This document shows, piece by piece, positions 51,374 to 63,928 of a stretch of 64,000 nucleotides of DNA (its first letter is position 1; every line of letters starts with the position of its first letter). The notes beneath the pieces were generated by a model, which saw nothing but the letters and a program-made list of their open reading frames with translations, was not told where the DNA came from and searched no databases. Made by a program: the position numbers and the translations under genes. Source of the DNA: an uncultured Candidatus Peribacteria bacterium (GTDB lineage: Bacteria; Patescibacteriota; Gracilibacteria; Absconditabacterales; Absconditicoccaceae); NCBI GenBank assembly GCA_964495905.1, contig CAZBWN010000078.1, positions 1,566 through 65,565 of the forward strand. The letters are read 5' to 3'.

Positions 51374-52351
51374 TTATAGGCTAAAACCTACTTTTTTATA
51401 TATATCCTCTATTTTTTTCTTTGCCATTTCATTTACTTTCTGTGTGTTTTTGTTGACGAGATCTATGATCTCTTGATCGGATATTTCCGCATATTTTTTC
51501 TGGATAGGGAGTACAAAGGCAAGTAACTTTTCGTAGAGATAGTCTTTTGCATCTTTATAACTCAATCCTCATGCCAGATATCTTTTTCTTAATGTTTCAT
51601 TTTCTTCTGGTGTCAAAAATAATTTACAGATATTATATACGTTACATTCATCCGGATTTTTTGGTTCCTCGATAGTCAAGGCGCTTGTCGGGATCTGTTT
51701 AACCCTTTTGAGGATAGTCTTTTCGTCGTCGAGAAGTCAGATGAAATTATTATATGATTTACTCATTTTACGTCCATCTATTCCCATAATCAATCCTACT
51801 TCCTCCTTGATATACGGTTCAGGGATCTTAAATGTCTCTCCAAATGCGTTGTTGAACTTCATAGCTATATCTCTCGCGTATTCCACATGCTGTTTCTGGT
51901 CTTTTCCTACGGGGACAAGGTCAGTGTCGTATAATAGGATATCAGCCGCCATCAAGATAGGATAACAGAATACTCAGACATTGATCTCTTTGGCTTTCCC
52001 TTTATCCAAAGCATCTTTGTACGTATGCATCCTCTCCATAAATCACATATTTGTGATACAGGTAAGTATCCAATTGAGCTGTGCATGTCCTGGAATCTCT
52101 GCAGGATTGTAGATCAAAAATCTTTCTAGATCCACTCCGCATGCTGCATACAACTTGATGATATTGATACCATTTCTTCTTAGTCTTATAGGGTCTTGCA
52201 CGCTATTGAATGAATGCATGACTGCCAAAAACATGAAAATCTCTGCATCTTTGAATTTGTCTGCAAGGTCTAGCATCGGTTTTACCGCTCAGAAATAATT
52301 TCCGATATGGATTTGGTCACTTGTTGCTTGAAGTCAGGTTAGAATCCTCAT
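51374..52351 (-). CDS. trpS: tryptophan--tRNA ligase
   Basis: [22 protein letters not shown] (HIGH), [13 protein letters not shown] (KMSKS). Three track fragments in frame. 978 nt. Confidence 0.92.
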
Positions 52352-52457
52352 GTATTGGTGTGTAGAAGTTAAAGTATTTATCATTGATATCATAGCGTTT
52401 GGGTGAATTATTTCAATAGATAGAGAAAAACTGTGTCTTTAGTGTAATATCATAAAC

Positions 52458-52607
52458 TTATTCATTCAAAAGCGCATAAAATATTCTTTCTATAACTTCA
52501 GAAACCTCTTTTACTGAGGGTAAATGCACTTTTTCTTGTGGGGTATGTGCAAATTTGATGTCAGCTCAGATAGATACTGCTTGAAAATTCGGTTTGAATT
52601 TTCCTGC
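52458..52607 (-). pseudogene. 3' remnant of an aminoacyl-histidine dipeptidase (PepD/M20C) gene
   Basis: A 49-codon open frame with no start: AGKFKPNFQAVSI-G-ADIKFAHTPQEKVHLPSVKEVSEVIERIFYALLNE*, matching the extreme C-terminus of PepD (..G....HSP.E.v.i.sv). Preceded by an in-frame TAA. Confidence 0.5.
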
Positions 52608-52645
52608 TTAAAGTACAAGCCAATGTTATAATAATATCGGAAAAC

Positions 52646-53317
52646 TTAGATTCTTGATCATATCGGTAATTCTTTTTTTTCTAATGAGATATCAATCATA
52701 TAAGCTGATTTTTCTCATTGTACAGTACAGATGTTATTATCATAAATAAGTCCTGTTCCTTCTGGTAGACAGATGACGGGAATTTGATAGTATTTTGCAT
52801 AATCTTTTATTTCATTTTCAGATTCTTCGTTATAATGACAAACTATAGAATAATCTTTACAAACATTATATCATAATGTTTCTTCAAAAGATAATTTTAC
52901 TGCATTCATATCTGCTGCTGTATGAATTTCCTTTCCCATGATAATCGCTCCTGCGCTTCATCCGTATATAGGTTTATTATTGTCGATAAATCTTTGAATG
53001 ATGTCTGAAAATCATGTATCTCTGATTAATTTCAAGAGTCTGTAGGTATTTCCTCATCCTATATACATACCATCATAATCATCCAGATGATTTTTATTAT
53101 TTTCTGTAAATTCTTTTTCTGATAATACATCTACTGAATATCATTCACTTATAGGAAATATATTTTGTATCCATTCTAAACATGAAGGATATTCTTCTGG
53201 ACGCATTGCTCGGGGGATATAGAGTATTTTTTTGTTTACTAATAATCATTTATAGAGGGCATCTATTTTTTTGGTGTCAGTGTGGTCTCCTCATCATGAT
53301 ACTACTAGTTTTGTCAT
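52646..53317 (-). CDS. peptidase S51 (dipeptidase E-like) family protein
   Basis: MTKLVVS-GGG-D..., YI-GGG-NTYRLL, IY-GG-SAGAII. 672 nt. Confidence 0.75.
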
Positions 53318-53503
53318 GGGTATAGTATAGCGGATAAATGTTTCTTTTTTAGAATAATGAATATGTCTAATATTTCAATAATAGATTGTTTTATAAAAAA
53401 ATATGTTTACTTGATATATGACTATTATATCTGATTTGTTTAAAATTTTTGCTATTGTGTTCTAATCTTATAAATATATATTTTTTAGGCTATATTTTAT
53501 TAA

Positions 53504-53578
53504 GCCAGGGTAGCTCAGTGGTAGAGCAGAGGCCTGAAAAGCCTTGTGTCGACAGTTCAATTCTGTCTCCTGGCACCA
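53504..53578 (+). tRNA. tRNA-Phe (anticodon GAA), CCA encoded
   Basis: GCCAGGGTAGCTCAGTGGTAGAGCAGAGGCCTGAAAAGCCTTGTGTCGACAGTTCAATTCTGTCTCCTGGCACCA. Confidence 0.92.
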
Positions 53579-53670
53579 TCTTATTAAAATAAATTTATTT
53601 ATTTGACTTTTATTATTAAATATGTATACTTTTGATTGATAAAAATTTATTTTTTTAAATGCTATTACAT

Positions 53671-55023
53671 ATGAATAAAGAGAATTTTACTTCTTCAGAA
53701 TGATATAATATGAAAGATGCTATTTCATTGGGTTCGGATGATCAGGCCACTCAAAAAATTTCTGATATTTTATCTGATAGTTCTAAACTTATAAATATTA
53801 ATTGAAATGATAATAAATGGATTGAATATATAAAACAGAAAATGAATGATAAATCTCTTTCTCCAAGAGAAATTTCATATTATAATCGTATCTTGAGGGT
53901 ATTATCAATGCCTGATTTATCTAAACAACCATGACATCCTATAAATTTAGTCATTAATAAAATTCTTTCTGCTCATTTTTTTGAATGATTTGATCATATA
54001 GACGTACCTCAATTTGTTTCTGAATGGGAAACTTTTGATTTATTTAATTTTCCTGAAAATCATGTAGCTAGAAGACCGAGCGATAGTTATTTTGTCAATA
54101 AATCTGAAATCAAAAAAGAAAGCATTCTTCTTAGACCACATACTTCAGTAATGTGGTACCACTATTTGATAGAATGAAAAGCAAAAGAAATCTTGGAAAA
54201 AACTTGAGAAGTAAAAGCATTATCTTTTTGAAAAGTGTATCGTGTAGATGAGCTAGATAAAACTCATCATGAATGTTTTCATCAAATTGATGGATTAAGA
54301 ATAACATCAAAAGAGAAAGAAATCATTAATCAAGATACATTGAAAGAGGTATTATCAAATACGATCAAAGCACTTTTCTGAGAAAATGTAAAGTTTAGAT
54401 TTAACCAAGATCAATTTCCTTATACAACAGATAGTTTGGAGGTTGAGGTTGAATTTGAATGAAAATGGTTGGAGGTTTTATGAGCATGAGTAGTACATCC
54501 TACTGTTTTAGAAAAATTATGATTAGATTCTACCAAATATAATTGATGGGCTTTTGGTTTTGGTATAGATAGATTAGTAATGGCATTGAAAAAAGTACCA
54601 GATATAAGAATTCTTCGGAGTGAAGATAAGAGAATCACTTCTCAATGGTGAAATCTTAATCCATATAAGGAAGTAAGTAATTTTCCTCCTGTTTATAAGG
54701 ATATATCTTTTGTTACTTCTAAGGATAAATTTGTAAAAAATACAGTAGAAATGGAAAAATCATGAAAGATTGAATTGATAAATGAAGCTGATTCATTTGA
54801 TTTGGCTGGTATAGCAAGAGATGTTTCATGATGACTTATAGAAGAAGTTAGGGTAATAGATATTTTTGAAAATGATAAAAAATTTGGTAATGATAAAAAA
54901 TCTGTGTGTGTGAGAATTACCTTTAGATCCTTAGAAAGAACGCTTACTAATGAGGAAATAAATATAGCTTATTTCAAAATAAGAGAAAAATTAGAAAAAG
55001 AACTTAATTATGAATTAAGATAA
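53671..55023 (+). CDS. monomeric, mitochondrial-type phenylalanine--tRNA ligase (class II core fused to FDX-ACB anticodon-binding domain)
   Basis: No ORF in the standard-code track. With TGA=G, a continuous 450 aa: HPINLV, FPENHVARRPSDSYF, LLRPHTSV, F-G-KVYRVDELDKTHHECFHQIDGL, -G-A-G-VVHPTVL, -G-WAFGFGIDRLVM, PDIRIL(CGG)SED. C-terminus FPPVYKDISFV...CVRITFRSLERTLTNEEI = FDX-ACB fold. Confidence 0.85.
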
Positions 55024-55033
55024 TTTAATTCCC

Positions 55034-55062
55034 TTGACATTAATCTCTATTTTAATATAAAT
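55034..55062 (+). promoter_or_regulatory. sigma70-like promoter of the peptide/radical-SAM operon
   Basis: TTGACA (55034..55039), 16-17 nt spacer, TATAAA/ATAAAT (55056..55062), about 50 nt upstream of ATG 55111. Confidence 0.55.
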
Positions 55063-55110
55063 ACTTTGATAGATTAAATCTTTTGTATGTTTTATATTAT
55101 AATATATAAT

Positions 55111-55227
55111 ATGGAAAACAAAGAAATTCAAGTTAAAAATGTTTGTGAAGAAAAGGATGCTAAAGAAAACGTGGTAGAAGATTATTATGAAGCAGAATCT
55201 TGGCAGTTTAGTGGTTGTTGAGATTAA
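55111..55227 (+). CDS. 38-aa candidate precursor peptide (RiPP-like): MENKEIQVKNVCEEKDAKENVVEDYYEAESWQFSGC-G-D
   Basis: Small ORF directly after the promoter and directly upstream of the enzyme genes. Acidic leader-like N-terminus, C-terminal SWQFSGCGD. The penultimate codon is TGA (Gly in code 25), with true stop TAA at 55225..55227. Confidence 0.6.
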
Positions 55228-55231
55228 TAGA

Positions 55232-55260
55232 AATGGGAGGAAAACTCCCATTTTTATTTA
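55232..55260 (+). terminator. hairpin plus T-run after the peptide gene (partial terminator/attenuator)
   Basis: AATGGGAG-gaaaa-CTCCCATT followed by TTTATTT, 14 nt before the next gene. Confidence 0.55.
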
Positions 55261-55273
55261 TTTAAAAATATAA

Positions 55274-55906
55274 ATGATTACATTATCATTTTGAGTAAAT
55301 TTATTATGAATAGAATATTTTAGGTCAAAATTTAATAAGACTTTTGATCTTGATGTATGTTCTGCTGACGCAAAGATAGCATGTAATGAACTCATTTTTT
55401 TATGGGATAGTGTTTCATCTGATATAAATTTTATTATAGAACAATTCTTTTGAGAGATTCATTATGATTTGAAAGTTGAAGTTTATCCAAAATATTTTCT
55501 TTTGTGAGCCATAAATATTGAAAAATGACTTATTGTCCTATGACAACCCAAAAGATCTGATTTTTTTTATTGATGATTGTTGTTACATGAATTAATTCAT
55601 TTTGTCTTGAAAGATAGATGATTAAATAGATTTATTGAGGAAACTATTTGTTTTCTATTTGAAAGAATGTTTATATTGAAATATGATTGAGCAACTATTG
55701 ATGATTTTCAATATGATAAATGAACTGATGATTTTCATACATATGCAATTATGTATTCAAAAGTTTTTTTTGATGATTTTATGCTATTTTATGCGAAATC
55801 TGATATTAATTGATTAATAAATTTTTTGAATAAAAAAATCGATAACTCTAAAAAGGAAATCACTATCGAAAATAATTTAATAGCTTATCTATCAAAAAAT
55901 GCATAA
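55274..55906 (+). CDS. HExxH-motif protein (putative zinc metallopeptidase)
   Basis: 633 nt open with TGA=G. ...DFFY-GG-LLLHELIHFVLKDR-G-LNRFIEE.... No further family recognised. Confidence 0.55.
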
Positions 55907-57206
55907 ATTCTATTTTAAGAAAGATACGTTGATTAGGATAGAACATTTTTGAATTCTATTATTGACTTTGGATTGAAGAAGATTTTCTATTTGAAATGAG
56001 TTTAAACCTATTCTAACTCATATCCATTGATGAAATATTGATTTATTATTAAAGTTTGGTAAAAAAATCTGAGAAACTAAAATTGTAAGGCTTATTGAAG
56101 CATTGGTAGAAAAATGAATATTGATATATTCATTAAAAAAGATTAATTCAAAATTAAGAATTATTGAAAATGATTTTATTTCAAATGATTGTTTAAGTTT
56201 TCCAAGAACTGTTTATTGGGAATTGACACAATCCTGTAATCTTGAATGTATCCATTGTTATTCAAACTCTATGGTAAAATGATTCAAATGATTAGATTTT
56301 GATACAATTAAAAAGACTATTGATGAATTGATAGATAAATGAGTTGAATTCTTAAATATTTGATGATGAGAACCATTGATGTATAAGGATCTCTATAAGA
56401 CATTGGATTATGCAATATCAGGATGACTTGTGATTGAGATGACAACAAATTGAACTTTAATAGGGGAAGAATCGATAAAAAAATTAAAACAAGTCTGAAT
56501 GAAATTCATTCAGATAAGTCTTGATTGATCATGTAAAGAAATTTATGAAAAAATCAGAAAAAAGTCAGATTTTGACAAAGTGATTAATTCAATAAAGTTA
56601 TTGATTGCTTCTTGATTTGTTGTTTCTATCAATACTGTATTGATGAAACATAATAAGGATGATATCATAAATATAATTAAATTATGCAATAGTTTATGAG
56701 TTAGTTATTTCAAGGTTTCTCCATTGATGGAGACATGAAGATGATTTACAAATATGGATAATATCCAATTGAGTTTGATTGAATATAAGAAAATATATAA
56801 AACGTTACTTAAATATAAAAAAGATCATTGATCTGATGCCATCAAAATCATAATATATCAAAATATATTAAAACCTGATGTCAAAAATATAAATTGGATG
56901 CCAAAAGAACATTTTTGATGCCCCGCATGAAGGACTACATGTTGAATAGATCCTTATTGAAATGTATATCCTTGTTCATATATGAATCAAAAAGAATTGT
57001 CTTGTGGTAATATTAAAGAGCAATCATTGTCTGATATATGGTCAAAATCAGAAATAATGGCTAATATCAGAAATATTGATAAAATCTCATGAAAGTGTTC
57101 ACATTGTAAATTCTTGGACTTGTGTAGATGATGATGTAGAGCAATGGCATATTTAAGATATAAAAAAATAGATGCAACTGATCCTTTATGTGTTGTAAAT
57201 TTATAA
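55899..57206 (+). CDS. radical SAM/SPASM enzyme with N-terminal PqqD/RRE-like domain (rSAM-1)
   Basis: ATG overlaps the previous stop (ATGCATAA). TQSCNLECIHCY (CxxxCxxC), NI-GGG-EPLMY, SPASM -G-CPA-G-RTTC-G-IDPY-G-NVYPC ... CGNI ... CSHCKFLDLCR-GG-CRA ... DPLC. By hand count, 29 of 33 Gly codons are TGA. 1308 nt. Confidence 0.85.
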
Positions 57207-57210
57207 AAAT

Positions 57211-58227
57211 ATGAAAATATCTATAGCTACTAATTGGGATGATGATCTAGTTGATTATATATCAAAATCAAACAATGATTGTTTATCAAATAGCATATGT
57301 GAATTTTTTGCGTCAAAAGCGTTTAGTATCTTATGAAGTGCTAATACTGATGTTCCAGATCTATCGCTTCAAGATATAAAGCAAAAAATATCCTATATAA
57401 AAGATAAAAATATCCAATTTAATTACTTGATTAATTCAAGTAAAATGCCTGATTTAAATGATGAGATAATCAGAAAAAAAGTCTTAGATTATTTGTCATG
57501 GATCAATACATTAGGTATTGATATTCTAACAGTGGCTAGTGAGGATCTTTTAGATCTAATCTATAAGAATTTTCCCAATATCCCCATTAATATTTCTGTC
57601 GTATTATGACTAAAAACTATAGAGAAAGCTAATTATTTAAGAGAAAAATATCCAAATATCGTAAGACTAACTTTACATCAAGATATCAATAGGGATAAAA
57701 AATTATTGGAAGAGCATATTAAAAATGCACATAATCATCAGACACTAAAGCCAGTTGAGATAGAATTATTGGCAAATGAGGTATGCTTTATTGGGTGTTG
57801 ATTAATGAAAGATCATTATGATGCATTAACTTCCTTGTCTCAAAAAAAAACATGAAAAGATTTTATGTTTTGATGGTGCTGCGCCAAAAGAAAAGAAAAT
57901 ATTATTGATTTTATCAATTCTAGTTTTATTAGGCCTGAAGATATGATATTATATGAAGATTTATGAGTTGATATCATTAAATTAGCTTGAAGAAAGGAAC
58001 AAACCAATGAATTGAAACTTAGGGCAAAGGCATATTTAGAAGGTTATTATGATTGAAATATTATGGACTTATTTTTAGCAGAATTTTGGCCTATGAAAAA
58101 ACCTCCATATATTTCTAATTCTTCTTTTAACTGATTTGTAAAGTTTTTATGGGGACAAAAATTAATAAAAATTGATAATAAAGAAATATTTCCATGATTC
58201 AAAAATTTAGATTATAATCGGAATTAA
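57211..58227 (+). CDS. hypothetical protein, peptidase-U32-like (tentative)
   Basis: 1017 nt open with TGA=G, containing track fragment 57427..57609. MKISIATNWDDDLVDYI..., IELLANEVCFIGC-G-LMKDHY resembles the U32 Cys-containing motif. Weak, by eye. Confidence 0.4.
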
Positions 58228-58229
58228 TT

Positions 58230-60176
58230 ATGTATTATAAAATTAAAGACAATGTTTTGTGGAGAAATGAGAAAAATAGTTTTATGATACTCCATCCAGT
58301 ATCAAAAAAATTGATGATATTCTGAAAAGATATCTCAGATTTTGTTAGTAAATGATGAATAATTGATGGATTTAAATTAAAAGATAATGTATCTATTAAA
58401 TATTTGATTAAAGAATCAATTGTTGCTGATTATCTGATTGATTTTGATATAAATAATCACATATTTTGATCTGATAATTTTGTTTCGGCTCCTTTAAATG
58501 TGACGATACAGATAACCAACAGGTGTAATCTACAATGCGGACATTGTCATAAGGTTGATAAGTGATGTGTGAATATTGATAAAGATAGACTCATAACCTT
58601 GATTGATGAACTTCATGAAATGAAAGTGTTTAATATAAATATATCATGATGAGAACCATTGATGTATGAGTGATTATCTGATGTTATAAAATATATAGTA
58701 TCCAAATGAATGAAAATTACTATGTCGACAAATCTCGTACTCTGGGATGAAAATATGGCAAATACAATGCATCAATTATGAGTAAGACAATTACATGTTT
58801 CATTAGATTCAAGTGATGAAACATACCATGATCATATGAGATGACATAAAGGCGCTTATTTGACTACTATTAAAAATCTGGCAATCATAAAAAAAGCTGG
58901 TTTAACTTTTACTTTGGTCACTACTTTGGTTAATCAAAGCATTGATGATTATTCAAAGATCATAGATTTATCATATAAATTATGAGCTAGTTGACATAAA
59001 ACTAATATATTAGTCCCACAATGACAATGAAAGTCTATAGAAACTTGATATTATAAAGATTTAAATTTATTTAAATCATATATTCGTGTTTTTCTTCAAA
59101 AAAAGAAAAAATATGATAAAAAAATGTCTGTGATATGAGAAAGCATGTTCATGATAAGTATCTGAGAAAATATGGATAACAAACCCGATATTTTGAAGTT
59201 ATGGTGTCCAGCAGGAGTGTTGACCTGTGCAATAACTGAAAAATGAAATTTGTTGGCATGCCCCTTTTATACCGAGCTTAGTATGTGAAATATATATGAT
59301 GATTCATTTAAAGATTTATGGACAAAAAGCGTATTGCTTTGAAAAATAAGAGTGTGTAAAGAAAATGATGGTAGTTGATGTCAAGCAAGAGCATATTGAA
59401 TATCCAAATCAATTGAAAATAATGATCCATATATTCATAAAAATGTATATGATGCAAACAATCATGATTTCTATAATAATTCAGCAGAAAATAGAAATGA
59501 TTTTATATCGGTAGTCTGACATTGAATAAAGATTGAATGAGAAAAATGAAATAAAGAGTTCTATTGATTGATACATAATTATTTGATGAGTTCAGACCTA
59601 ACATTGGAGATTTGAACCTGAACTTGAATCGTACCGAAGACTTTGGGTTGTCTGTGAAAAAAGATAATTTCCATCGATTTTTCAGATAATATGTTGAAAT
59701 TGGCAAAAGAAAATTGTAGTATGTATGATAACGTCTTATTTATGAAAGAAGATATACATGCATTGACTTTTAGGGATGGTAATTTTGATCTTATCATTAA
59801 AAGGCTTGCTCCGGATGATCTATGAGAAATATTCAGAGTTTTGAAATTCGGTTGAAATTTCATTAATTTTACAAATTGAGAAAGAGATTGAATGGAATTA
59901 AAAGAACTTTTTTGATTTCCTTTCCATCAAAGCGTTTCTGATTATAAATCTCAATTGGTTAAACAATGATTTGAGATGATATATGAAGATGAATTTGAAT
60001 TTAAGGAAATCTATAATGATTTTGATATACTAATTAAAATGTTACATATAGCGCCTATCATACCTGACTTTTTGGATAGAGAGGCATATTATATTGATAA
60101 AATAAAAACTGAATTTGATGACACTAATTGCTTTGTTTTAACTCGTCATAAATATTTGGTAAATGCAAAAAAATAA
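58230..60176 (+). CDS. radical SAM/SPASM-like enzyme with RRE-like N-terminus, fused to a C-terminal class I SAM-dependent methyltransferase (rSAM-2/MT)
   Basis: TNRCNLQCGHCH, IS-GG-EPLMY, CPAGVLTCAITEK-G-NLLACP. Then LTLEI-G-T-G-T-G-IVPKTL (motif I), ISIDFSDNML, GNFDLII, LKF-GG-NFI. Frame continuity between the halves was checked codon by codon across 59331..59642. Same frame as track ORF 59976..60176. 1947 nt. Confidence 0.8.
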
Positions 60177-61200
60177 ACCATTTGATATATTTACATTGCA
60201 ATGGCATATTACAAATAATTGCCAATTAAGATGCACACATTGTTATGTAGATTTTTCAAAATCTTTTTCAATCAGTATGTCTGATTTTCATAAAGCTATG
60301 AATAATTATAAAAGATTCCTTGCATATTATTGAATAACGTGAAAGGTATATTATACTTGATGAGATCCACTTCTTCACCCAAATTTTTGGAATATTATGG
60401 ATGAAACAAAAAAACATTGATTAGAATCGGCTATATTTTGAAATTTCCATTTGTTGAATGATGAAAATATTCAAAAATTATGTGACAATGATATCAAATT
60501 TTATCAATTGAGTATGGAATGACTTAGAGAGACACACGATAACATAAGATGAGAATGAACATTTATCTGAGTAATTGATTCTATTGCTAAATTAGAACAG
60601 AAATGAATATATACTCTAGTTAATATGACATTATCAAAAATGAATATCGATCAGCTTATACCTTTAATTGAATTTTTAGCATATCATACCAATCTTTCAA
60701 GATTTGATTTTGTAAGAATAGTTCCTATTTGAAAAGCATCAAAAAACATTATGCTTTCTGATGCTGAATTGAAATCTATCTTTTTAAAGATATTGGAATT
60801 GGAGAAAAAAATAAAAAAAGATTGAAAAAAAATGGTTATATGAAAAAAAGATCATTTATGGAAATTATTATATTACCAATCAGATAAACTGAATATTAAT
60901 TTGAAAGACCAAACAGCTGGTTGCTGAATGGGATATAGGCACCTTACAGTAATTGAAAATTGAGATATCTATCTCTGTAGGAAACTACCAATTAAAATAT
61001 GAAATATCATTACCGATGATTTAATAGAAATATATGAAAATAATACAATTATTTCAGATGTATTGAATCTAAATTATGTCGTGTGATGCCACTGATGTAA
61101 ATTGGAATATGTGTGTAGATGATGTCCAGCTGTAACCTATTGATTAAATAATAATTTAACAAAAAAAGATCCTCAATGTCGGCAGAATTATTTATATTAA
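60163..61200 (+). CDS. radical SAM/SPASM enzyme (rSAM-3)
   Basis: ATG overlaps the previous gene by 14 nt. TNNCQLRCTHCY, YT-GG-DPLLH, SPASM A-G-C-G-MGYRHLTVIEN-G-DIYLC ... -G-NI ... -G-CH-G-CKLEYVCR-G-CPA ... DPQC. 1038 nt. Confidence 0.85.
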
Positions 61201-61212
61201 TAATGCATAAAT

Positions 61213-62259
61213 ATGTATATGGCAAATATCGTTATATGAGAAACCTATTGTGTCCTTAATTGTGATTATTGTATGTATACAAAAGATATTAGAAAGATTT
61301 TTTCAGAAAAAGAATTATCTACAGTTTCTGGAAATGTATCAAAAATAAAGAAATTTATAGATAATTATGCAAAGAAAATACAGGTCATATCTCTTACATG
61401 ATGAGAACCTACATTGTTCCCTGATATAATAAAGACTTTTTATGATAAATTTGATAATAAGATAATTAGAGTTTGTACCAATGGACTTTTATTAAATAAT
61501 GAATTATTAGATTCATTTTCTCCTGAAAGATTATATTTTGCCGTAACTTTGGATTGAATTGATTTAGAGGATAATTTATTCAGATTTAAATCTCAAGTTA
61601 TGTTGGATAAAATAATCTCTAACATAGATCTTTTGTTGAATAGATGATTCAGTGTTGAAATATTGACGGTTCTGAGTCCTCAAAATATGTTAAAATATAC
61701 TAAATTGATTGAATATTTTGAAAATAAATATCACAAATATATTGAAAACTGAAAAATATGGTTTATACCTATCGAACTAGTGAATTATATGAATTTAGAT
61801 AAATTTAAGATCAGTGATAAAATGAAATCTGATCTTGTGCTTGATCTCATGTCCTGTAAGAAAAAATCAATTATACTGTCAAGACAGAAAGAATATTTTG
61901 ATGAACTAATATCGTATTATTCATGAAATAGCGTCAATACTTGTGGTATGTATAAACGAGCGCTCCATTTAAAATATTTGGGGGATTCTATTCGAACAAA
62001 ATGATCATTTAATCTTTATTGATGCTGAAGCAGATGACATCTGATGATGTGAACAATGAATTTTAATAATTCATTTGATGCTTCTTTTATATTAGAAAGA
62101 AGAGAAACAAAATCAGTAAAATTATATTTTAAAGAATCGGATAGTGCATGTAAAAAATGTTTTGATAATCGACATTATTATTGATTAATATTAAAAAATA
62201 AATTACATAATGTCCCACATATATTAAAAAAAACAATTGATTTATATCATAATAATTAA
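61213..62259 (+). CDS. radical SAM enzyme with Cys-containing C-terminal domain (rSAM-4)
   Basis: YCVLNCDYCMY (CxxxCxxC at residues 12-19), SLT-GG-EPTLF, C-terminal NTCGMYK, Y-G-C-G-SR-G-, CKKC. 1047 nt. Confidence 0.75.
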
Positions 62260-62261
62260 AA

Positions 62262-63041
62262 ATGGAAGAAAAATTCTTGTTGAATAAAATTTGATCAAAC
62301 CCTAATAGACTTTGAGTCTTAATATGTACTCATGGAGATGAAACATTATGATTTAATGTTATGAAGATGATAGAAAATGTTGTAGATGATCTTACTTTTG
62401 TCTTGATGAATAAAAGGGCTTTTGATATATGAAAAAGATATGTTGAATATGATTTGAATAGGTGTTTCTTGTGAAATATATTGGAAAAATGACTTGATTC
62501 TTATGAATACAAATTATCACAAGAACTTCATGAAATACTAACTTGATTTGATAATATCATTGATATACATTCGACAAATTTTGATATAGATCCATATTTT
62601 ATTATAGATACACTCGAAAAAAAGGAATCAATATTGATTAAATCCGCATCTAATGAATTAATCAAAAATTCCTATCTAATACCTCTTTCAAAATGAACCG
62701 TAATCTGACCTTATTTGAATGCGATAGCAATAGAGTCTTGACCTAATAATGATAAGAAGAAAATACATCAAGTTGCAAACATAGTCAAAAATATATCAAA
62801 TAATATTTGATTTAATCATAACAATGAAAAGGAATTGAATGTTTTTTGATGAGAGTTGACAAAGAAAGATGTCTTTAGATTAAGAGAAGATATTAAAGAT
62901 TTTGATCTAATAGCTAAATGAGCAATTTTATGATATAATGAGGAATGAAAAATTGTGATAGCTAATGAAGATATGAAATTGTTTTGGATAAATAATAAAT
63001 TTGAAGATCCGAATGTTCTTGCAATAAAATTAAAAATTTAA
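62262..63041 (+). CDS. succinylglutamate desuccinylase/aspartoacylase (AstE/AspA, M14-like zinc carboxypeptidase) family protein
   Basis: VLICTHGDETL-G-, EYDLNRCFL-G-, IIDIHSTN. 780 nt with TGA=G. Confidence 0.65.
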
Positions 63042-63047
63042 TAAAAA

Positions 63048-63067
63048 ATCACGACCAAAATCGTGAT
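63048..63067. terminator. hairpin between the operon end and a convergent small ORF
   Basis: ATCACGA-ccaaaa-TCGTGAT. A T-run follows on the minus strand (A-run 63042..63047 on plus). Confidence 0.5.
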
Positions 63068-63093
63068 AAATATTACTTATTAACTTAGTTATC

Positions 63094-63255
63094 TTAATTT
63101 TTTGGACCAAACATCCATTTTCGTCTATTCATTGGAGGTATTCTTTTGTCATGTACTAAGATATTAGTAAGATAAATACTGTTTCCTTTATATCTAATTA
63201 TATTGTATTTATGATTTTTTGCAAATTTTGTCTTAGATATTAATCTTTTTGTCAT
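63094..63255 (-). CDS. hypothetical small basic protein (53 aa)
   Basis: ATG 63255, MTKRLISKTKFAKNHKYNIIRYKGNSIYLTNILVHDKRIPPMNRRKWMFGPKN, TAA 63096..63094. Below the track length cut-off. No family recognised. Confidence 0.3.
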   Translation of the reverse strand: MTKRLISKTKFAKNHKYNIIRYKGNSIYLTNILVHDKRIPPMNRRKWMFGPKN

Positions 63256-63377
63256 ACCCCTTAATTAGTGTACGAAAATGTCTGAATTTCGGCTTGAATT
63301 CTATATATAAATGTATATATACAACACACCCCTGTTTATACAGGTTATTTTTTTGTCTTTATACTGTTGAAATATAT

Positions 63378-63448
63378 TGGGGAATCGTCTAACGGTAGGA
63401 CAGCGGACTTTGACTCCGTCAGTCTAGGTTCGAATCCTAGTTCCCCAA
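63378..63448 (+). tRNA. tRNA-Gln (anticodon TTG)
   Basis: TGGGGAATCGTCTAACGGTAGGACAGCGGACTTTGACTCCGTCAGTCTAGGTTCGAATCCTAGTTCCCCAA. U1-A72, loop CU-UUG-AC. Confidence 0.85.
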
Positions 63449-63487
63449 GACTGATTAACTTCATGGCCCAATATAATGAAAGGACAT

Positions 63488-63562
63488 TGCGGGATAGAGA
63501 AACGGTATCTCGTTGGGCTCATAACCCGAAGACAGGTGGTTCGACTCCATCTCCCGCAACCA
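63488..63562 (+). tRNA. initiator tRNA-fMet (anticodon CAT), CCA encoded
   Basis: TGCGGGATAGAGAAACGGTATCTCGTTGGGCTCATAACCCGAAGACAGGTGGTTCGACTCCATCTCCCGCAACCA. GGG/CCC at the base of the anticodon stem and the ...CCCGCAACCA 3' end are typical of initiators. Confidence 0.8.
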
Positions 63563-63595
63563 AAAGAATATGTAAATTTGATATACTAGTACTGA

Positions 63596-63668
63596 TCGGG
63601 AGTAGCTTAGCTGGTAGAGCGTCTGACTCTGAATCAGGAGGTCCTAGGTTCGAATCCTAGCTCCCGAG
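63596..63668 (+). tRNA. tRNA-Gln (anticodon CTG)
   Basis: TCGGGAGTAGCTTAGCTGGTAGAGCGTCTGACTCTGAATCAGGAGGTCCTAGGTTCGAATCCTAGCTCCCGAG. U1-A72, G73, loop CU-CUG-AA. Confidence 0.8.
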
Positions 63669-63679
63669 AATGCATCCGT

Positions 63680-63735
63680 GCCGGGGTGATAAATTGAAGA
63701 ATAGACATGTCCGCCTAGGCGGATGCCATAAACAG
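63680..63735 (+). pseudogene. tRNA-Leu-derived 5' fragment whose anticodon arm is replaced by the GTCCGCCTAGGCGGAT palindrome
   Basis: GCCGGGGTGAT (identical to the first 11 nt of the tRNA-Leu at 63768), D-arm-like ...AATAGACAT, palindrome, then GCCATAAACAG. No T-arm or 3' acceptor. Confidence 0.6.
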
Positions 63736-63767
63736 TTAGTGAAAAAATTTAATAAAATTGTGTTCAT

Positions 63768-63848
63768 GCCGGGGTGATGGAATGGTAGACATGCTTGGCT
63801 TAGAACCAAGTGCCATACGGTGTGCAGGTTCGAGTCCTGTCCCCGGTA
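63768..63848 (+). tRNA. tRNA-Leu (anticodon TAG)
   Basis: GCCGGGGTGATGGAATGGTAGACATGCTTGGCTTAGAACCAAGTGCCATACGGTGTGCAGGTTCGAGTCCTGTCCCCGGTA. Long variable arm. Confidence 0.88.
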
Positions 63849-63928
63849 GTTGATTGTAGATTGAATGATAGACATGTCCGCCTAGGCGGATGCCACACGG
63901 TGTTCAGAATAACTCCCTGTCCCCGGTA
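63849..63928 (+). pseudogene. tRNA-Leu-derived 3' fragment with the same palindrome in place of the anticodon arm and a degenerate T-arm
   Basis: ...GATTGAATGATAGACAT-GTCCGCCTAGGCGGAT-GCCACACGGTGTT-CAGAATAACTCCCTG-TCCCCGGTA. Variable arm and 3' acceptor match the tRNA-Leu at 63768. The 5' acceptor is missing. Confidence 0.6.

What the first reader, a model, noticed from the sequence alone, without database searches (positions are those of the whole stretch)
55111..55260. Candidate precursor peptide MENKEIQVKNVCEEKDAKENVVEDYYEAESWQFSGCGD with a code-dependent C-terminus and a downstream attenuator-like hairpin
SEEN: this is the first ORF after the promoter. It has an acidic, Lys/Glu-rich leader-like part and an aromatic/Cys-containing tail (W31, F33, C36). 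The third-from-last triplet is TGA, so the tail is ...GCGD under code 25 but ...SGC under the standard code. Five nt after the TAA stop lies an 8-bp hairpin plus T-run (55232..55260), immediately before the enzyme genes. ESTABLISHED: RiPP operons commonly place a leaky terminator after the precursor gene to over-produce peptide mRNA relative to enzymes. Trp/Phe/Cys are the usual targets of rSAM cross-linking (thioether, C-C cyclophane, ether). INFERENCE: SWQFSGCGD is the modified core. W-Q-F / F-S-G three-residue windows and the single core Cys are plausible cross-link sites. The C-terminal Gly-Asp could be trimmed by the M14-like enzyme or methylated by the fused methyltransferase.
Basis: partly seen in the sequence, partly recalled or inferred. 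Interest (0 to 1): 0.8.

Follow-up and report, generated by a model that had tools for sequence, protein, structure and literature searches.

The report
Conserved radical-SAM peptide precursor beside PheRS
A 38-codon gene, read with the TGA=glycine code, encodes a peptide whose last 14 residues are the same (bar two substitutions) in about 20 distant uncultured bacteria. It always sits next to radical-SAM enzymes, a small zinc peptidase and, wherever enough flanking DNA is available, a phenylalanyl-tRNA synthetase, so it is very probably the substrate of an undescribed peptide-modification pathway.

Summary
ORF 55111-55227 (+) encodes MENKEIQVKNVCEEKDAKENVVEDYYEAESWQFSGCGD under code 25, and a hairpin plus U-run follows at 55232-55263.

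The organism reads TGA as Gly: the GGEP motifs of its radical-SAM genes are written with TGA.

Degenerate-pattern scans and synteny look-ups recovered 20 distinct versions of the peptide, in genomes of 19-63% GC that use code 25 or code 11. The C-terminal YYEAES(W/R)QFS(G/S)CGD-stop is invariant apart from those two positions, and every core codon varies synonymously. The penultimate Gly is TGA, GGA, GGT, GGC or GGG. The leaders differ in length (9-39 residues before the motif) and in sequence.

The peptide gene is next to an HExxH protein in all 16 lineages where that flank is held. Two RRE-type radical-SAM/SPASM maturases (SuiB-like fold) and a monomeric, mitochondrial-type PheRS are nearby wherever enough flank is available.

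No Pfam or NCBIfam model and no paper describes this family, so it is a real precursor of a new radical-SAM RiPP family. The chemistry and the role of the PheRS are inferred, not shown.

- The invariant block is longer than proposed.
- W31 is replaced by R in 3 lineages.
- The fused methyltransferase is not universal.

The parts
53504..53578 (+). tRNA-Phe (GAA), directly upstream of the PheRS gene
   Evidence: ARAGORN and Rfam. A tRNA-Phe also lies next to the monomeric PheRS in L012 and L038.
53659..55023 (+). Monomeric, mitochondrial-type PheRS (class II core plus FDX-ACB anticodon-binding domain). It accompanies the peptide gene in every locus with enough context.
   Evidence: Best PDB matches are human mitochondrial PheRS, E 4e-41 over both domains. 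Pfam gives tRNA-synt_2d plus FDX-ACB for the orthologues and the Pace-type members; the window protein itself was not scanned against Pfam. Synteny.
55035..55062 (+). Promoter-like TTGACA, 16 nt, TATAAA
   Evidence: Direct reading. TTGAC-type -35 motifs also lie upstream of the peptide gene in L001, L006 and L014. Not statistically distinguishable in this AT-rich DNA.
55111..55227 (+). Precursor peptide gene, 38 aa under code 25: MENKEIQVKNVCEEKDAKENVVEDYYEAESWQFSGCGD
55111..55176 (+). Variable Lys/Glu-rich leader (residues 1-22)
   Evidence: Leaders are 9-39 residues before the 16-residue block shown. There is no conserved motif except a weak V/I preference at -3 from YY.
55183..55224 (+). 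Invariant block YYEAES(W/R)QFS(G/S)CGD (residues 25-38), serving as recognition sequence plus core
   Evidence: 20 distinct peptides. All 14 codons vary synonymously and only 2 positions change residue.
55219..55221 (+). TGA codon read as Gly37
   Evidence: Orthologues carry TGA, GGA, GGT, GGC or GGG here. Standard-code lineages stop with TGA one codon later.
55232..55263 (+). Intrinsic-terminator-like hairpin (8-bp core stem, GAAAA loop) plus U-run
   Evidence: dG -18.4, z -5.1. An equivalent hairpin with different sequence occurs in L001, L003, L004, L006, L011 and L012.
55274..55906 (+). HExxH...E protein (210 aa), a minimal gluzincin-like peptidase. It is next to the peptide gene in all 16 lineages where that flank is held, and is the candidate leader peptidase.
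   Evidence: H105-E106-x-x-H109 and E122/E123 are invariant among five close homologues. Model pLDDT is 82.7; the Foldseek hits are weak (E 0.2-1), but 32 of the first 33 are zinc metallopeptidases: M61, M1/LTA4H, M48 and the M60-like ZmpA. It is fused to rSAM_A in L017. No Pfam or NCBIfam hit. Only 26 representatives in 1.84e9 proteins.
55899..57206 (+). rSAM_A: radical SAM/SPASM maturase with a ~100-aa N-terminal extension
   Evidence: Pfam Radical_SAM 3.8e-31 and SPASM 6e-13. The best NCBIfam match is the mycofactocin maturase, 211.5 bits against a cut-off of 265. Present in every locus that holds enough flanking sequence.
57211..58227 (+). Peptidase-U32-like protein, an accessory present only in this version of the cluster
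   Evidence: Pfam PF01136, 25 bits. Absent from all other loci.
58230..60176 (+). rSAM_B: RRE-like N-terminus plus radical SAM/SPASM, fused here to a class I methyltransferase
   Evidence: Pfam. Orthologues without the methyltransferase domain occur in most other lineages. The model of orthologue P0016 matches SuiB over its full length (E 5e-20, TM 0.69-0.71), then SkfB and CteB.
60163..61200 (+). rSAM_C: radical SAM/SPASM, closest to the ACGX-system and SbtM (thio(seleno)oxazole) maturases
   Evidence: TIGR04340 240.5 bits (cut-off 400) and TIGR04082 224 bits (cut-off 350).
61213..62259 (+). rSAM_D: radical SAM protein with no SPASM hit
   Evidence: Pfam Radical_SAM 2.3e-14. Orthologues in L001, L003, L004 and L038.
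62262..63041 (+). AstE/AspA-family (aspartoacylase-like) zinc hydrolase, a candidate for removing the C-terminal Asp
   Evidence: PF24827 1.7e-9 and NF002601 aspartoacylase 5e-13, below cut-off. Also present in L001, L003, L004, L006, L008 and L037.

Best explanation
**What it is.** ORF 55111-55227 is a genuine, translated gene for the precursor of a ribosomally made, radical-SAM-modified peptide (RiPP). It belongs to a previously undescribed family found mainly in candidate-phyla-radiation bacteria.

**Shown.**
- Under code 25 the product ends ...YYEAESWQFSGCGD.
- This 14-residue block is under strong purifying selection in about 20 lineages.
- The N-terminal part is a variable, charged leader.
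- The gene is followed by a terminator-type hairpin, and then by an HExxH protein and radical-SAM/SPASM enzymes with the architecture of peptide maturases.

**Inferred mechanism.**
1. The gene's own promoter and the terminator give an abundant short peptide mRNA. Read-through expresses the enzymes.
2. rSAM_A and rSAM_B bind the invariant block through their N-terminal RRE-like domains. They install cross-links or an oxidative rearrangement involving the invariant Cys36 and/or the invariant aromatic residues Y25, Y26 and F33.
3. rSAM_C (SbtM/ACGX-like) may act on the xCGx motif.
4. The AstE/AspA-like hydrolase may remove the C-terminal Asp.
5. The HExxH gluzincin may remove the leader.
6. Lineage-specific enzymes then tailor the same scaffold. 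Here these are the methyltransferase, rSAM_D and the U32-like protein. Elsewhere they are a glycosyltransferase, a carbamoyltransferase, a kinase, a PP-loop ATPase, an ATP-grasp enzyme and an M24 peptidase.

**The PheRS.** The monomeric PheRS that always accompanies the peptide is most simply read as a functional part of the locus. It could be a product-insensitive PheRS (self-resistance) or a dedicated supplier of Phe-tRNA.
For: **Code 25.**

**Conservation.**
- Syntenic loci fetched through the rSAM_B homologues all carry the peptide.
- Degenerate DNA scans for YYEAES.QF found 5 true hits among 12 in species-representative genomes. They found 14 true hits among 25 in metagenomes.
- This gives 20 distinct peptides. 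Synonymous changes occur at all 14 core codons, including TCN/AGY serine switches, and only W/R and G/S replacements occur.

**Terminator.** Hairpin dG -18.4, z -5.1. Six of the eight other lineages tested have a hairpin plus U-run with an unrelated stem sequence, making 7 of 9 with the window.

**Enzymes.**
- Three radical SAM/SPASM proteins (rSAM_A, rSAM_B, rSAM_C) and a fourth radical SAM protein without a SPASM hit (rSAM_D).
- The rSAM_B orthologue model matches the RRE-containing RiPP maturases SuiB, SkfB and CteB over its full length.
- The HExxH protein adjoins the peptide gene in 16 lineages and is fused to rSAM_A in L017. Its model resembles MA-clan peptidases.

**PheRS link.**
- A monomeric PheRS lies close to the peptide gene, between directly adjacent and a few genes away, in the window, L001, L003, L004, L011, L012/L040, L017, L022, L028/L045, L032, L035, L038, L041 and L044. 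In L006 it lies at the cluster end.
- L006, L008+L044 and L022 also carry canonical pheS-pheT. These genomes therefore have two PheRS systems.
- The PheRS shares the extreme codon usage of the cluster: 84% TGA-Gly against 28% elsewhere in the window.
Against: - No mass-spectrometric or transcript data exist. Every chemical step is inferred.
- The RRE of rSAM_A could not be shown by sequence: PqqD matched at E 0.18 in 1 of 8 members.
- The Foldseek matches of the HExxH protein are weak, E 0.2-1.
- The near-total invariance of 14 residues is atypical for secreted antimicrobial RiPPs. No exporter belongs to the conserved gene set. This fits an intracellular cofactor-like or scaffold role at least as well.
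- In Gracilibacteria the monomeric PheRS is widespread. In 3 of 3 sampled loci it occurs without the cluster. In this window it may therefore simply be the housekeeping enzyme next to which the island sits.
- No known aminoacyl-tRNA-dependent transferase is in the cluster.
Confidence: 0.85

Rival explanations
1. The peptide is a reusable scaffold, or the source of a small molecule or cofactor, as with mycofactocin, PQQ or the pearlins, rather than a peptide end product. The enzymes would build a small, heavily tailored metabolite on or from its invariant C-terminus. Phe-tRNA made by the co-located PheRS might be used as a building block. The peptidases would then release the metabolite.
For: - Fourteen residues are invariant across phyla, with a free-drifting N-terminus of 9-39 residues.
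- rSAM_A and rSAM_B score best against mycofactocin, heme d1 and PQQ-type maturases.
- Other lineages add small-molecule-type tailoring enzymes to the same peptide: a GT1 glycosyltransferase, a carbamoyltransferase, an APH-like kinase, a PP-loop ATPase, an ATP-grasp enzyme and an M24 peptidase.
- No exporter belongs to the conserved set.
- The PheRS is always present, and a tRNA-Phe gene is adjacent in 3 lineages.
Against: - No PEARL/LanB-like, Fem-like or other known aminoacyl-tRNA-using enzyme was found.
- Scores are below every equivalog cut-off, for example MftC 211.5 against 265.
- The C-terminus is not GVY or ExxxY.
- This is a refinement of the main explanation rather than a contradiction of it.
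Confidence: 0.3
2. The ORF is a translated regulatory leader of the pheM type, or an untranslated 5' region. Its hairpin would attenuate transcription of the downstream genes, or of pheST, in response to Phe-tRNA supply. The peptide itself would have no function.
For: - The gene lies beside PheRS genes in all lineages. In L006 it lies upstream of pheS-pheT.
- A terminator-type hairpin follows the stop codon.
Against: - The amino-acid sequence, not the RNA, is conserved. All 14 core codons vary synonymously, including TCN/AGY switches, while the residues stay fixed.
- There is a single Phe codon and no Phe run.
- The hairpin sequences are unrelated between lineages.
- The position of the gene relative to the PheRS genes varies: downstream, upstream, or on the opposite strand.
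Confidence: 0.03
3. The peptide is a small unmodified protein, for example a regulator or binding partner of the monomeric PheRS. The radical-SAM enzymes would act on another substrate such as tRNA-Phe or a small molecule.
For: - The tightest gene association is peptide, HExxH protein and PheRS.
- The accessory enzyme sets differ while the peptide stays identical.
Against: - rSAM_A and rSAM_B are present wherever enough sequence is held.
- rSAM_B has the full RRE-rSAM-SPASM fold of peptide maturases.
- The HExxH protein is fused to rSAM_A in L017.
- A short gene followed by a terminator and then SPASM enzymes is the standard RiPP layout.
Confidence: 0.08
4. It is a chance ORF in AT-rich intergenic DNA.
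For: Short ORFs are common at 26% GC. An antisense 79-codon ORF overlaps it at 55015-55251.
Against: Twenty orthologues exist, in genomes of 19-63% GC and in two genetic codes.
Confidence: 0.01

Closest known systems
Mycofactocin (MftA/MftC) and PQQ (PqqA/PqqE) systems
   Same: - A short peptide with a strongly conserved C-terminal motif and a drifting N-terminus.
- Radical SAM/SPASM maturases; rSAM_A's best NCBIfam match is the MftC model.
- A peptidase in the cluster, and a glycosyltransferase in some lineages.
- No exporter.
   Different: - Scores are below the equivalog cut-offs (211.5 against 265 for MftC; 130 against 381 for PqqE).
- The C-terminus is CGD, not GVY or ExxxY.
- No MftB, MftD, MftE or MftF, and no PqqB, PqqC or PqqD homologues.
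- Two to five radical SAM enzymes instead of one.
- A PheRS is always attached.
RRE-containing radical SAM/SPASM RiPP maturases: SuiB (streptide), SkfB and CteB (sacti-/ranthipeptides)
   Same: - The rSAM_B orthologue model superposes on SuiB over its full length (E 5e-20, TM about 0.7), then on SkfB and CteB.
- A single invariant Cys and invariant aromatic residues in the core.
- The precursor gene is next to the enzymes.
   Different: - Sequence identity is 17-18%.
- No NCBIfam family reaches its cut-off.
- The core motif is unlike the streptide KGDGW motif or Cys-rich SCIFF-type cores.
- The leader is not conserved, whereas the region next to the core is.
SbtA/SbtM thio(seleno)oxazole and ACGX-repeat systems
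   Same: - rSAM_C scores best against TIGR04340 (ACGX) and TIGR04082 (SbtM).
- The target-like motif is x-C-G-x.
- SbtA precursors also carry an in-frame TGA near the modified site (PMC11002830).
   Different: - Here the TGA is Gly, not Sec: orthologues have GGN.
- The modified candidate is the Cys before it.
- Scores are far below cut-off.
- There is one CG motif, not repeats.
- rSAM_C is absent from many lineages of the family.
Biosynthetic clusters that carry a second aminoacyl-tRNA synthetase
   Same: The known examples, from my own knowledge, are mupirocin (IleRS), albomycin (SerRS), borrelidin (ThrRS), indolmycin (TrpRS) and agrocin 84 (LeuRS), plus the valanimycin VlmL SerRS as a supplier. 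As in those clusters, a structurally different second PheRS sits inside the cluster in genomes that also have canonical pheS-pheT (L006, L008+L044, L022).
   Different: - No product or target is known.
- In Gracilibacteria the monomeric enzyme is widespread without the cluster.
- The canonical pheST genes are themselves often adjacent.

Membership tests
Radical-SAM RiPP (generic) | A short, separately encoded precursor gene next to the modifying enzymes, conserved with them | tested here: met
   20 distinct peptides, all beside homologous enzymes wherever context is held.
Radical-SAM RiPP (generic) | Maturase with a CxxxCxxC radical SAM core plus a SPASM auxiliary-cluster domain | tested here: met
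   Pfam Radical_SAM plus SPASM in rSAM_A, rSAM_B and rSAM_C.
Radical-SAM RiPP (generic) | Peptide-recognition (RRE/PqqD-like) domain | tested here: inconclusive
   The rSAM_B orthologue aligns with SuiB over about 450 columns, which must include its N-terminal domain. Its predicted N-terminus is beta-rich with two helices. Pfam PqqD matched only 1 of 8 rSAM_A N-termini, at E 0.18.
Radical-SAM RiPP (generic) | Post-translationally modified product | not testable with these tools
   Needs expression and mass spectrometry.
Mycofactocin system | MftC equivalog (TIGR03962, at least 265 bits) and a precursor ending in GVY | tested here: not met
   211.5 bits for rSAM_A and 121.6 for rSAM_B. The peptide ends in CGD.
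SbtA/SbtM thio(seleno)oxazole system | SbtM equivalog (TIGR04082, at least 350 bits) and a Sec-encoding TGA in the precursor | tested here: not met
   224 bits. The TGA is replaced by GGA, GGT, GGC or GGG in orthologues, so it encodes Gly.
ACGX-repeat system | TIGR04340 at 400 bits or more, and a peptide with repeated ACGX | tested here: not met
   240.5 bits. There is a single (G/S)CGD.
Genetic code 25 (TGA = Gly) | TGA at positions that are conserved Gly in homologues | tested here: met
   GGEP motifs are encoded by TGA. The peptide's Gly35 and Gly37 alternate between TGA and GGN among orthologues. ORF statistics agree.
Rho-independent terminator | A G+C-containing stem-loop directly followed by a U-run, downstream of a stop codon | tested here: met
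   The tool's stricter pattern scan returned none, probably because the A-tract/U-run extension of the stem leaves too few unpaired T.
Rho-independent terminator | Partial termination in vivo (leakiness) | not testable with these tools
   Needs term-seq or RNA-seq.
pheM-type leader-peptide attenuator | A run of Phe codons in a leader ORF upstream of pheST | tested here: not met
   One Phe codon. In the window the ORF is downstream of the PheRS gene.
aaRS self-resistance gene in a biosynthetic cluster | A second, divergent copy of the synthetase inside the cluster in genomes that keep the canonical enzyme | tested here: met
   L006, L008+L044 and L022 carry pheS-pheT and a monomeric PheRS in one cluster. 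This could not be tested for the window's own genome; no canonical pheS or pheT lies in the 64 kb.
aaRS self-resistance gene in a biosynthetic cluster | The product inhibits the canonical enzyme but not the cluster copy | not testable with these tools
   Needs the product and enzyme assays.

The most novel reading that the evidence does not exclude
The cluster makes a peptide-derived metabolite directed at phenylalanyl-tRNA synthetase, or one built with Phe-tRNA. The monomeric, mitochondrial-type PheRS is its dedicated resistance or supply enzyme and travels with the cluster as one island. In Gracilibacteria this cluster-borne enzyme went on to become the general PheRS, so a biosynthetic cluster's own synthetase came to serve as a core translation enzyme. 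It would also show that the PheRS architecture known from mitochondria exists in bacteria.
Probability: 0.25. Interest if true: 0.9.

Novelty: new variant of a known kind. Interest (0 to 1): 0.72.

Why it matters
**A new RiPP family from poorly studied bacteria.** It defines a RiPP family, with its precursor, from candidate-phyla-radiation bacteria, a group with reduced genomes. The family has no Pfam or NCBIfam model and no literature trace in the library searched.

**An unusual conservation pattern.** Fourteen residues are fixed across genomes of 19-63% GC and two genetic codes. This points to a product with a very conserved partner or chemistry.

**A concrete hypothesis from the PheRS link.** The constant presence of a second, monomeric PheRS suggests a PheRS-directed or Phe-tRNA-dependent product. 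That can be tested by expressing two or three recoded genes in E. coli.

**An example of code dependence.** Under the standard code the true C-terminus (Gly-Asp) is lost and most of the enzymes fragment.

Tried and rejected
- **Exact look-up of the peptide.** The code-11 36-aa form is not on record.
- **Pfam scan of rSAM_A N-termini for PqqD/RRE.** Inconclusive.
- **Structure prediction of my code-25 translations.** Database proteins were used instead (A2, A3).
- **Simple terminator and promoter scan.** It returned no terminator, and promoter-like sites at the chance level. The hairpin was therefore judged by folding and by its recurrence in orthologous loci.
- **Search for att-like direct repeats bracketing the low-GC island.** None were found. 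The repeats detected were only GGEP-coding TGATGAGAACC and tRNA-flank repeats.
- **Literature searches.** I searched for the motif, for CPR/Patescibacteria or Gracilibacteria with radical SAM or RiPP, for PheRS with self-resistance, and for monomeric bacterial PheRS. Nothing relevant turned up. One search served only to locate the SbtM review read.
- **The idea that the monomeric PheRS is specific to the cluster.** Rejected for Gracilibacteria: 3 of 3 sampled homologous PheRS loci lack the cluster.
- **Selenocysteine reading of the TGA (by analogy with SbtA).** Rejected because orthologues have GGN at that position.
- **Upstream in-frame ATG at 55087 (MFYIIIYN...).** Rejected as the start because orthologues begin ME(E/N)K at the position of 55111.
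- **Chance hits in the scans.** Seven of 12 genome hits and 11 of 25 metagenome hits to the DNA pattern were chance matches inside unrelated ORFs and were discarded.
Full report
**1. The observation**

The sequence shows an ATG at 55111 followed by 38 sense codons. They spell MENKEIQVKNVCEEKDAKENVVEDYYEAESWQFSGC-TGA-D, and the stop TAA is at 55225-55227 with an in-frame TAG right behind it.

The window is not read with the standard code.
- Counting TGA as sense raises the total length of ORFs of 100 codons or more from 32 kb to 101 kb.
- TGA supplies the glycines of the GGEP motifs of the radical-SAM genes. That fits code 25 (TGA = Gly) and not code 4.
- The nearest database copy of the neighbouring enzyme is the same sequence annotated as "uncultured bacterium (gcode 4)". 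It is 94% identical to my translation, presumably differing at the TGA positions. The HExxH copy P0227 shows directly that the difference is W for G.

A hairpin follows the stop. Its core stem is AAUGGGAG/CUCCCAUU (55232-55239 / 55245-55252), its loop is GAAAA, and a U-run extends to about 55263. Folding gives -18.4 kcal/mol with z = -5.1. The next gene starts at 55274.

The simple pattern scanner did not flag the hairpin. It also found promoter-like hexamers at the chance rate in this AT-rich DNA. The promoter (TTGACA 55035-55040, 16 nt, TATAAA) therefore rests on direct reading only. No gene in the window has a Shine-Dalgarno-like motif (0 of 58), so its absence before this ORF carries no weight.

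**2. The neighbourhood**

Downstream on the same strand lie the following genes:

| Coordinates | Gene | Notes |
|---|---|---|
| 55274-55906 | 210-aa HExxH protein | No family match |
| 55899-57206 | rSAM_A | Radical SAM/SPASM with a ~100-aa N-terminal extension |
| 57211-58227 | U32-like protein | Only in this version of the cluster |
| 58230-60176 | rSAM_B | Radical SAM/SPASM fused to a methyltransferase |
| 60163-61200 | rSAM_C | Closest to the ACGX-system and SbtM maturases |
| 61213-62259 | rSAM_D | Radical SAM, no SPASM hit |
| 62262-63041 | AstE/AspA-type zinc hydrolase | Aspartoacylase-like |

No protein reaches the curated cut-off of any NCBIfam family, and the peptide matches none.

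Upstream lie tRNA-Phe (53504-53578) and a 454-aa phenylalanyl-tRNA synthetase (53659-55023). This enzyme has the single-chain architecture known from mitochondria: a class II core plus an FDX-ACB domain. Its best solved relatives are human mitochondrial PheRS, E 4e-41.

**3. Conservation of the small ORF**

- *Syntenic loci.* Homologues of rSAM_B led to syntenic loci. L001 (= L002), L003 and L004 (= L005) have the same gene order, and each has a small ORF ending in ...DYYEAES(W/R)QFSGCGD at the same place.
- *The Gly codon.* In L003 the penultimate Gly is GGA instead of TGA.
- *A standard-code Pacebacteria genome (L006).* It carries MTTEKTQKAVEVKSEKKVENEEVQEYYEAESWQFSSCGD upstream of an HExxH homologue.
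- *Degenerate DNA scans.* The pattern for YYEAES.QF found 5 true loci among 12 hits in species-representative genomes. It found 14 true loci among 25 hits in metagenomes.
- *Total.* After removing duplicates there are 20 distinct peptides, from DNA of 19% to 63% GC.
- *What is fixed.* The block YYEAES(W/R)QFS(G/S)CGD followed by a stop is fixed. All 14 codons vary synonymously; Ser34, for example, uses TCA, TCT, TCC, TCG, AGT and AGC. Only two positions change residue: W to R in 3 lineages and G to S in 3 lineages.
- *Gly37.* It is TGA, GGA, GGT, GGG or GGC. In two standard-code lineages TGA is the stop codon immediately after Asp.
- *Leaders.* They are Lys/Glu-rich, 9 to 39 residues long before the 16-residue block shown, and not alignable.

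This is the signature of a translated peptide whose C-terminal 14 residues are functional. It settles the code-dependent C-terminus in favour of ...CGD.

**4. The hairpin**

Of nine lineages folded, seven (the window, L001, L003, L004, L006, L011, L012) have a stable stem-loop plus U-run starting within a few bases of the stop. The stem sequences are unrelated. L014 has a weaker hairpin and L017 has none. A terminator at this position is therefore a conserved feature of the locus. Whether it is leaky cannot be tested here.

**5. The conserved gene set**

BLAST of all ORFs in the loci against the window's proteins gives these results.
- The peptide gene is next to the HExxH gene in all 16 lineages where that flank is held. 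The exceptions are L036, where the contig ends, L037, where the neighbour is the AstE-like gene, L017 and L030.
- In L017 the HExxH protein is fused to rSAM_A.
- rSAM_A and rSAM_B are present wherever enough DNA is held.
- The remaining genes fall into two sets.
  - Window type: rSAM_C, rSAM_D, the AstE-like enzyme, sometimes the methyltransferase fusion. The U32-like protein occurs only here.
  - "Pace" type: a PP-loop ATPase-like protein, a GT1 glycosyltransferase, an AstE-like enzyme, an M24 peptidase, a carbamoyltransferase, an APH-like kinase, further radical-SAM proteins and an ATP-grasp enzyme.
- L044 continues L008 (their APH genes are identical). It shows that the peptide, first thought absent there, lies at the far end of that cluster.

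The HExxH family is very small. Only 26 representatives at E ≤ 1e-3 were found among 1.84 billion cluster representatives.

**6. What the enzymes look like**

- *rSAM_B.* An AlphaFold model of the orthologue P0016 (23-sequence alignment, pLDDT 82) superposes over its full length on SuiB, at E 5e-20, TM 0.69-0.71 and about 450 aligned columns. SkfB, CteB, TigE, PqqE and anSME follow. This is the architecture of RRE-containing peptide maturases.
- *rSAM_A.* Sequence-only detection of a PqqD/RRE domain in its N-terminus failed.
- *HExxH protein.* The model (pLDDT 83) gives only weak Foldseek hits (E 0.2-1), but 32 of the first 33 are zinc metallopeptidases: M61, M1/LTA4H, M48 and the M60-like ZmpA. 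Among the five close homologues aligned, H105-E106-x-x-H109 and E122/E123 are invariant, and the HExxH motif is visible in the more distant orthologues. I read it as a minimal gluzincin and the likely leader peptidase.
- *AstE/AspA family.* By established enzymology this family hydrolyses N-acyl-Asp or N-acyl-Glu amide bonds. That fits removal of the invariant C-terminal Asp. This step is inference.

**7. The PheRS link**

In the 15 lineages where enough flanking sequence is held, a monomeric PheRS gene lies close to the peptide gene, between directly adjacent and a few genes away. In L006 it lies at the cluster end.
- L006, L008+L044 and L022 additionally carry canonical pheS-pheT in or beside the cluster. 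These small genomes therefore encode two PheRS systems at one locus.
- L026 has pheS-pheT beside the enzymes, and L001 has a canonical pheS next door.
- A tRNA-Phe gene adjoins the monomeric PheRS in the window, L012 and L038.
- In the window, the PheRS and the cluster share a codon usage unlike the rest of the contig: 84% of Gly codons are TGA against 28%, and GC3 is 0.19 against 0.31. This suggests they arrived together from another code-25 organism.

The link runs one way only. The monomeric PheRS is widespread in Gracilibacteria: all 120 hits listed are at least 55% identical to the window's enzyme. Three of three sampled loci lack both the peptide and the cluster. One of them, L048, places the PheRS inside a shikimate/phenylalanine biosynthesis operon.

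The cluster therefore always has a PheRS, but the PheRS does not always have the cluster. Three readings are possible:
- a product-insensitive synthetase (self-resistance);
- a dedicated Phe-tRNA supply;
- a preferred insertion site next to PheRS genes.

I favour a functional link because standard-code lineages keep a second, structurally different PheRS inside the cluster. This is inference. No aminoacyl-tRNA-using enzyme and no exporter was recognised.

**8. Comparison with known systems**

- *What it works like.* The closest analogues are the RRE-dependent radical-SAM/SPASM RiPP pathways (streptide, sacti- and ranthipeptides). In conservation pattern it resembles the cofactor-type systems mycofactocin and PQQ.
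- *Membership.* It is a member of none. The scores are MftC 211.5 against 265, PqqE 130 against 381, SbtM 224 against 350 and ACGX 240.5 against 400. The peptide motif is different.
- *The SbtA analogy.* SbtA precursors carry an in-frame TGA for selenocysteine (PMC11002830). That does not hold here, because orthologues have GGN at the position.
- *A pheM-type attenuator.* This is excluded by the protein-level conservation and the single Phe codon.
- *Literature.* Full-text searches for the motif and for CPR, Gracilibacteria or Patescibacteria with radical SAM or RiPP found nothing.

**9. Verdict**

Four amendments apply:
- the conserved block is YYEAES(W/R)QFS(G/S)CGD, not just SWQFSGCGD;
- Trp31 is dispensable;
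- the methyltransferase is lineage-specific;
- the PheRS belongs in the picture.

It is a new variant of a known kind: a radical-SAM RiPP family with an unusually invariant core and an attached aminoacyl-tRNA synthetase. The chemistry, the mature product and the role of the PheRS are unknown and directly testable.

Noticed in passing
window 53504-55023: A single-chain PheRS with the mitochondrial architecture (class II core plus FDX-ACB; best PDB hits are human mitochondrial PheRS), preceded by tRNA-Phe. The type is widespread in Gracilibacteria: all 120 listed hits are at least 55% identical. No canonical pheS or pheT lies in the 64 kb. I found no paper describing bacterial monomeric PheRS in the library searched.
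   Followed up: partly
L048 1-13526 (GCA_017973835.1): In another Gracilibacteria genome the monomeric PheRS sits inside a shikimate/phenylalanine biosynthesis operon. The order is chorismate synthase, PheRS, chorismate mutase, prephenate dehydratase, prephenate dehydrogenase, aminotransferase. The peptide cluster is absent.
   Followed up: no
window 52000-63100: A compositional island. GC falls from about 0.34 to about 0.26. The genes from the PheRS to the AstE-like gene use TGA for 84% of Gly codons, against 28% elsewhere, and GC3 is 0.19 against 0.31. The island is bounded by tRNA-Phe and a tRNA block (Gln, Met, Gln, Leu at 63377-63849). No att-like direct repeats were found.
   Followed up: partly
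window 63690-63928: A 39-nt repeat (92% identical) follows tRNA-Gln(CTG) and tRNA-Leu(TAG), at 63690-63728 and 63857-63895. A degenerate copy of the tRNA-Leu 3' end lies at 63891-63928.
   Followed up: no
window 57211-58227: A peptidase-U32-like protein is inserted between rSAM_A and rSAM_B only in this version of the cluster. From my own knowledge, U32 relatives include O2-independent, prephenate-dependent hydroxylases.
   Followed up: no
L017 563-2509: The HExxH protein and rSAM_A are fused into one 648-aa protein. This locus lacks the terminator hairpin after the peptide gene.
   Followed up: partly
window, all genes: None of 58 genes has an SD-like 4-mer in the -20 to -4 region, so the organism appears not to use Shine-Dalgarno initiation.
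   Followed up: no
window 52646-53317 (-): A peptidase S51 (peptidase E-like, Asp-X dipeptidase family) gene lies next to tRNA-Phe at the edge of the low-GC island. Its TGA-Gly usage is intermediate (10 of 19).
   Followed up: no
L037 (1050 nt, GC 0.63) and L036 (GC 0.52): The same peptide core occurs on high-GC contigs. In L037 the order is rSAM_B, peptide, AstE-like gene. The family is therefore not confined to low-GC CPR genomes. The source organisms are unknown.
   Followed up: no
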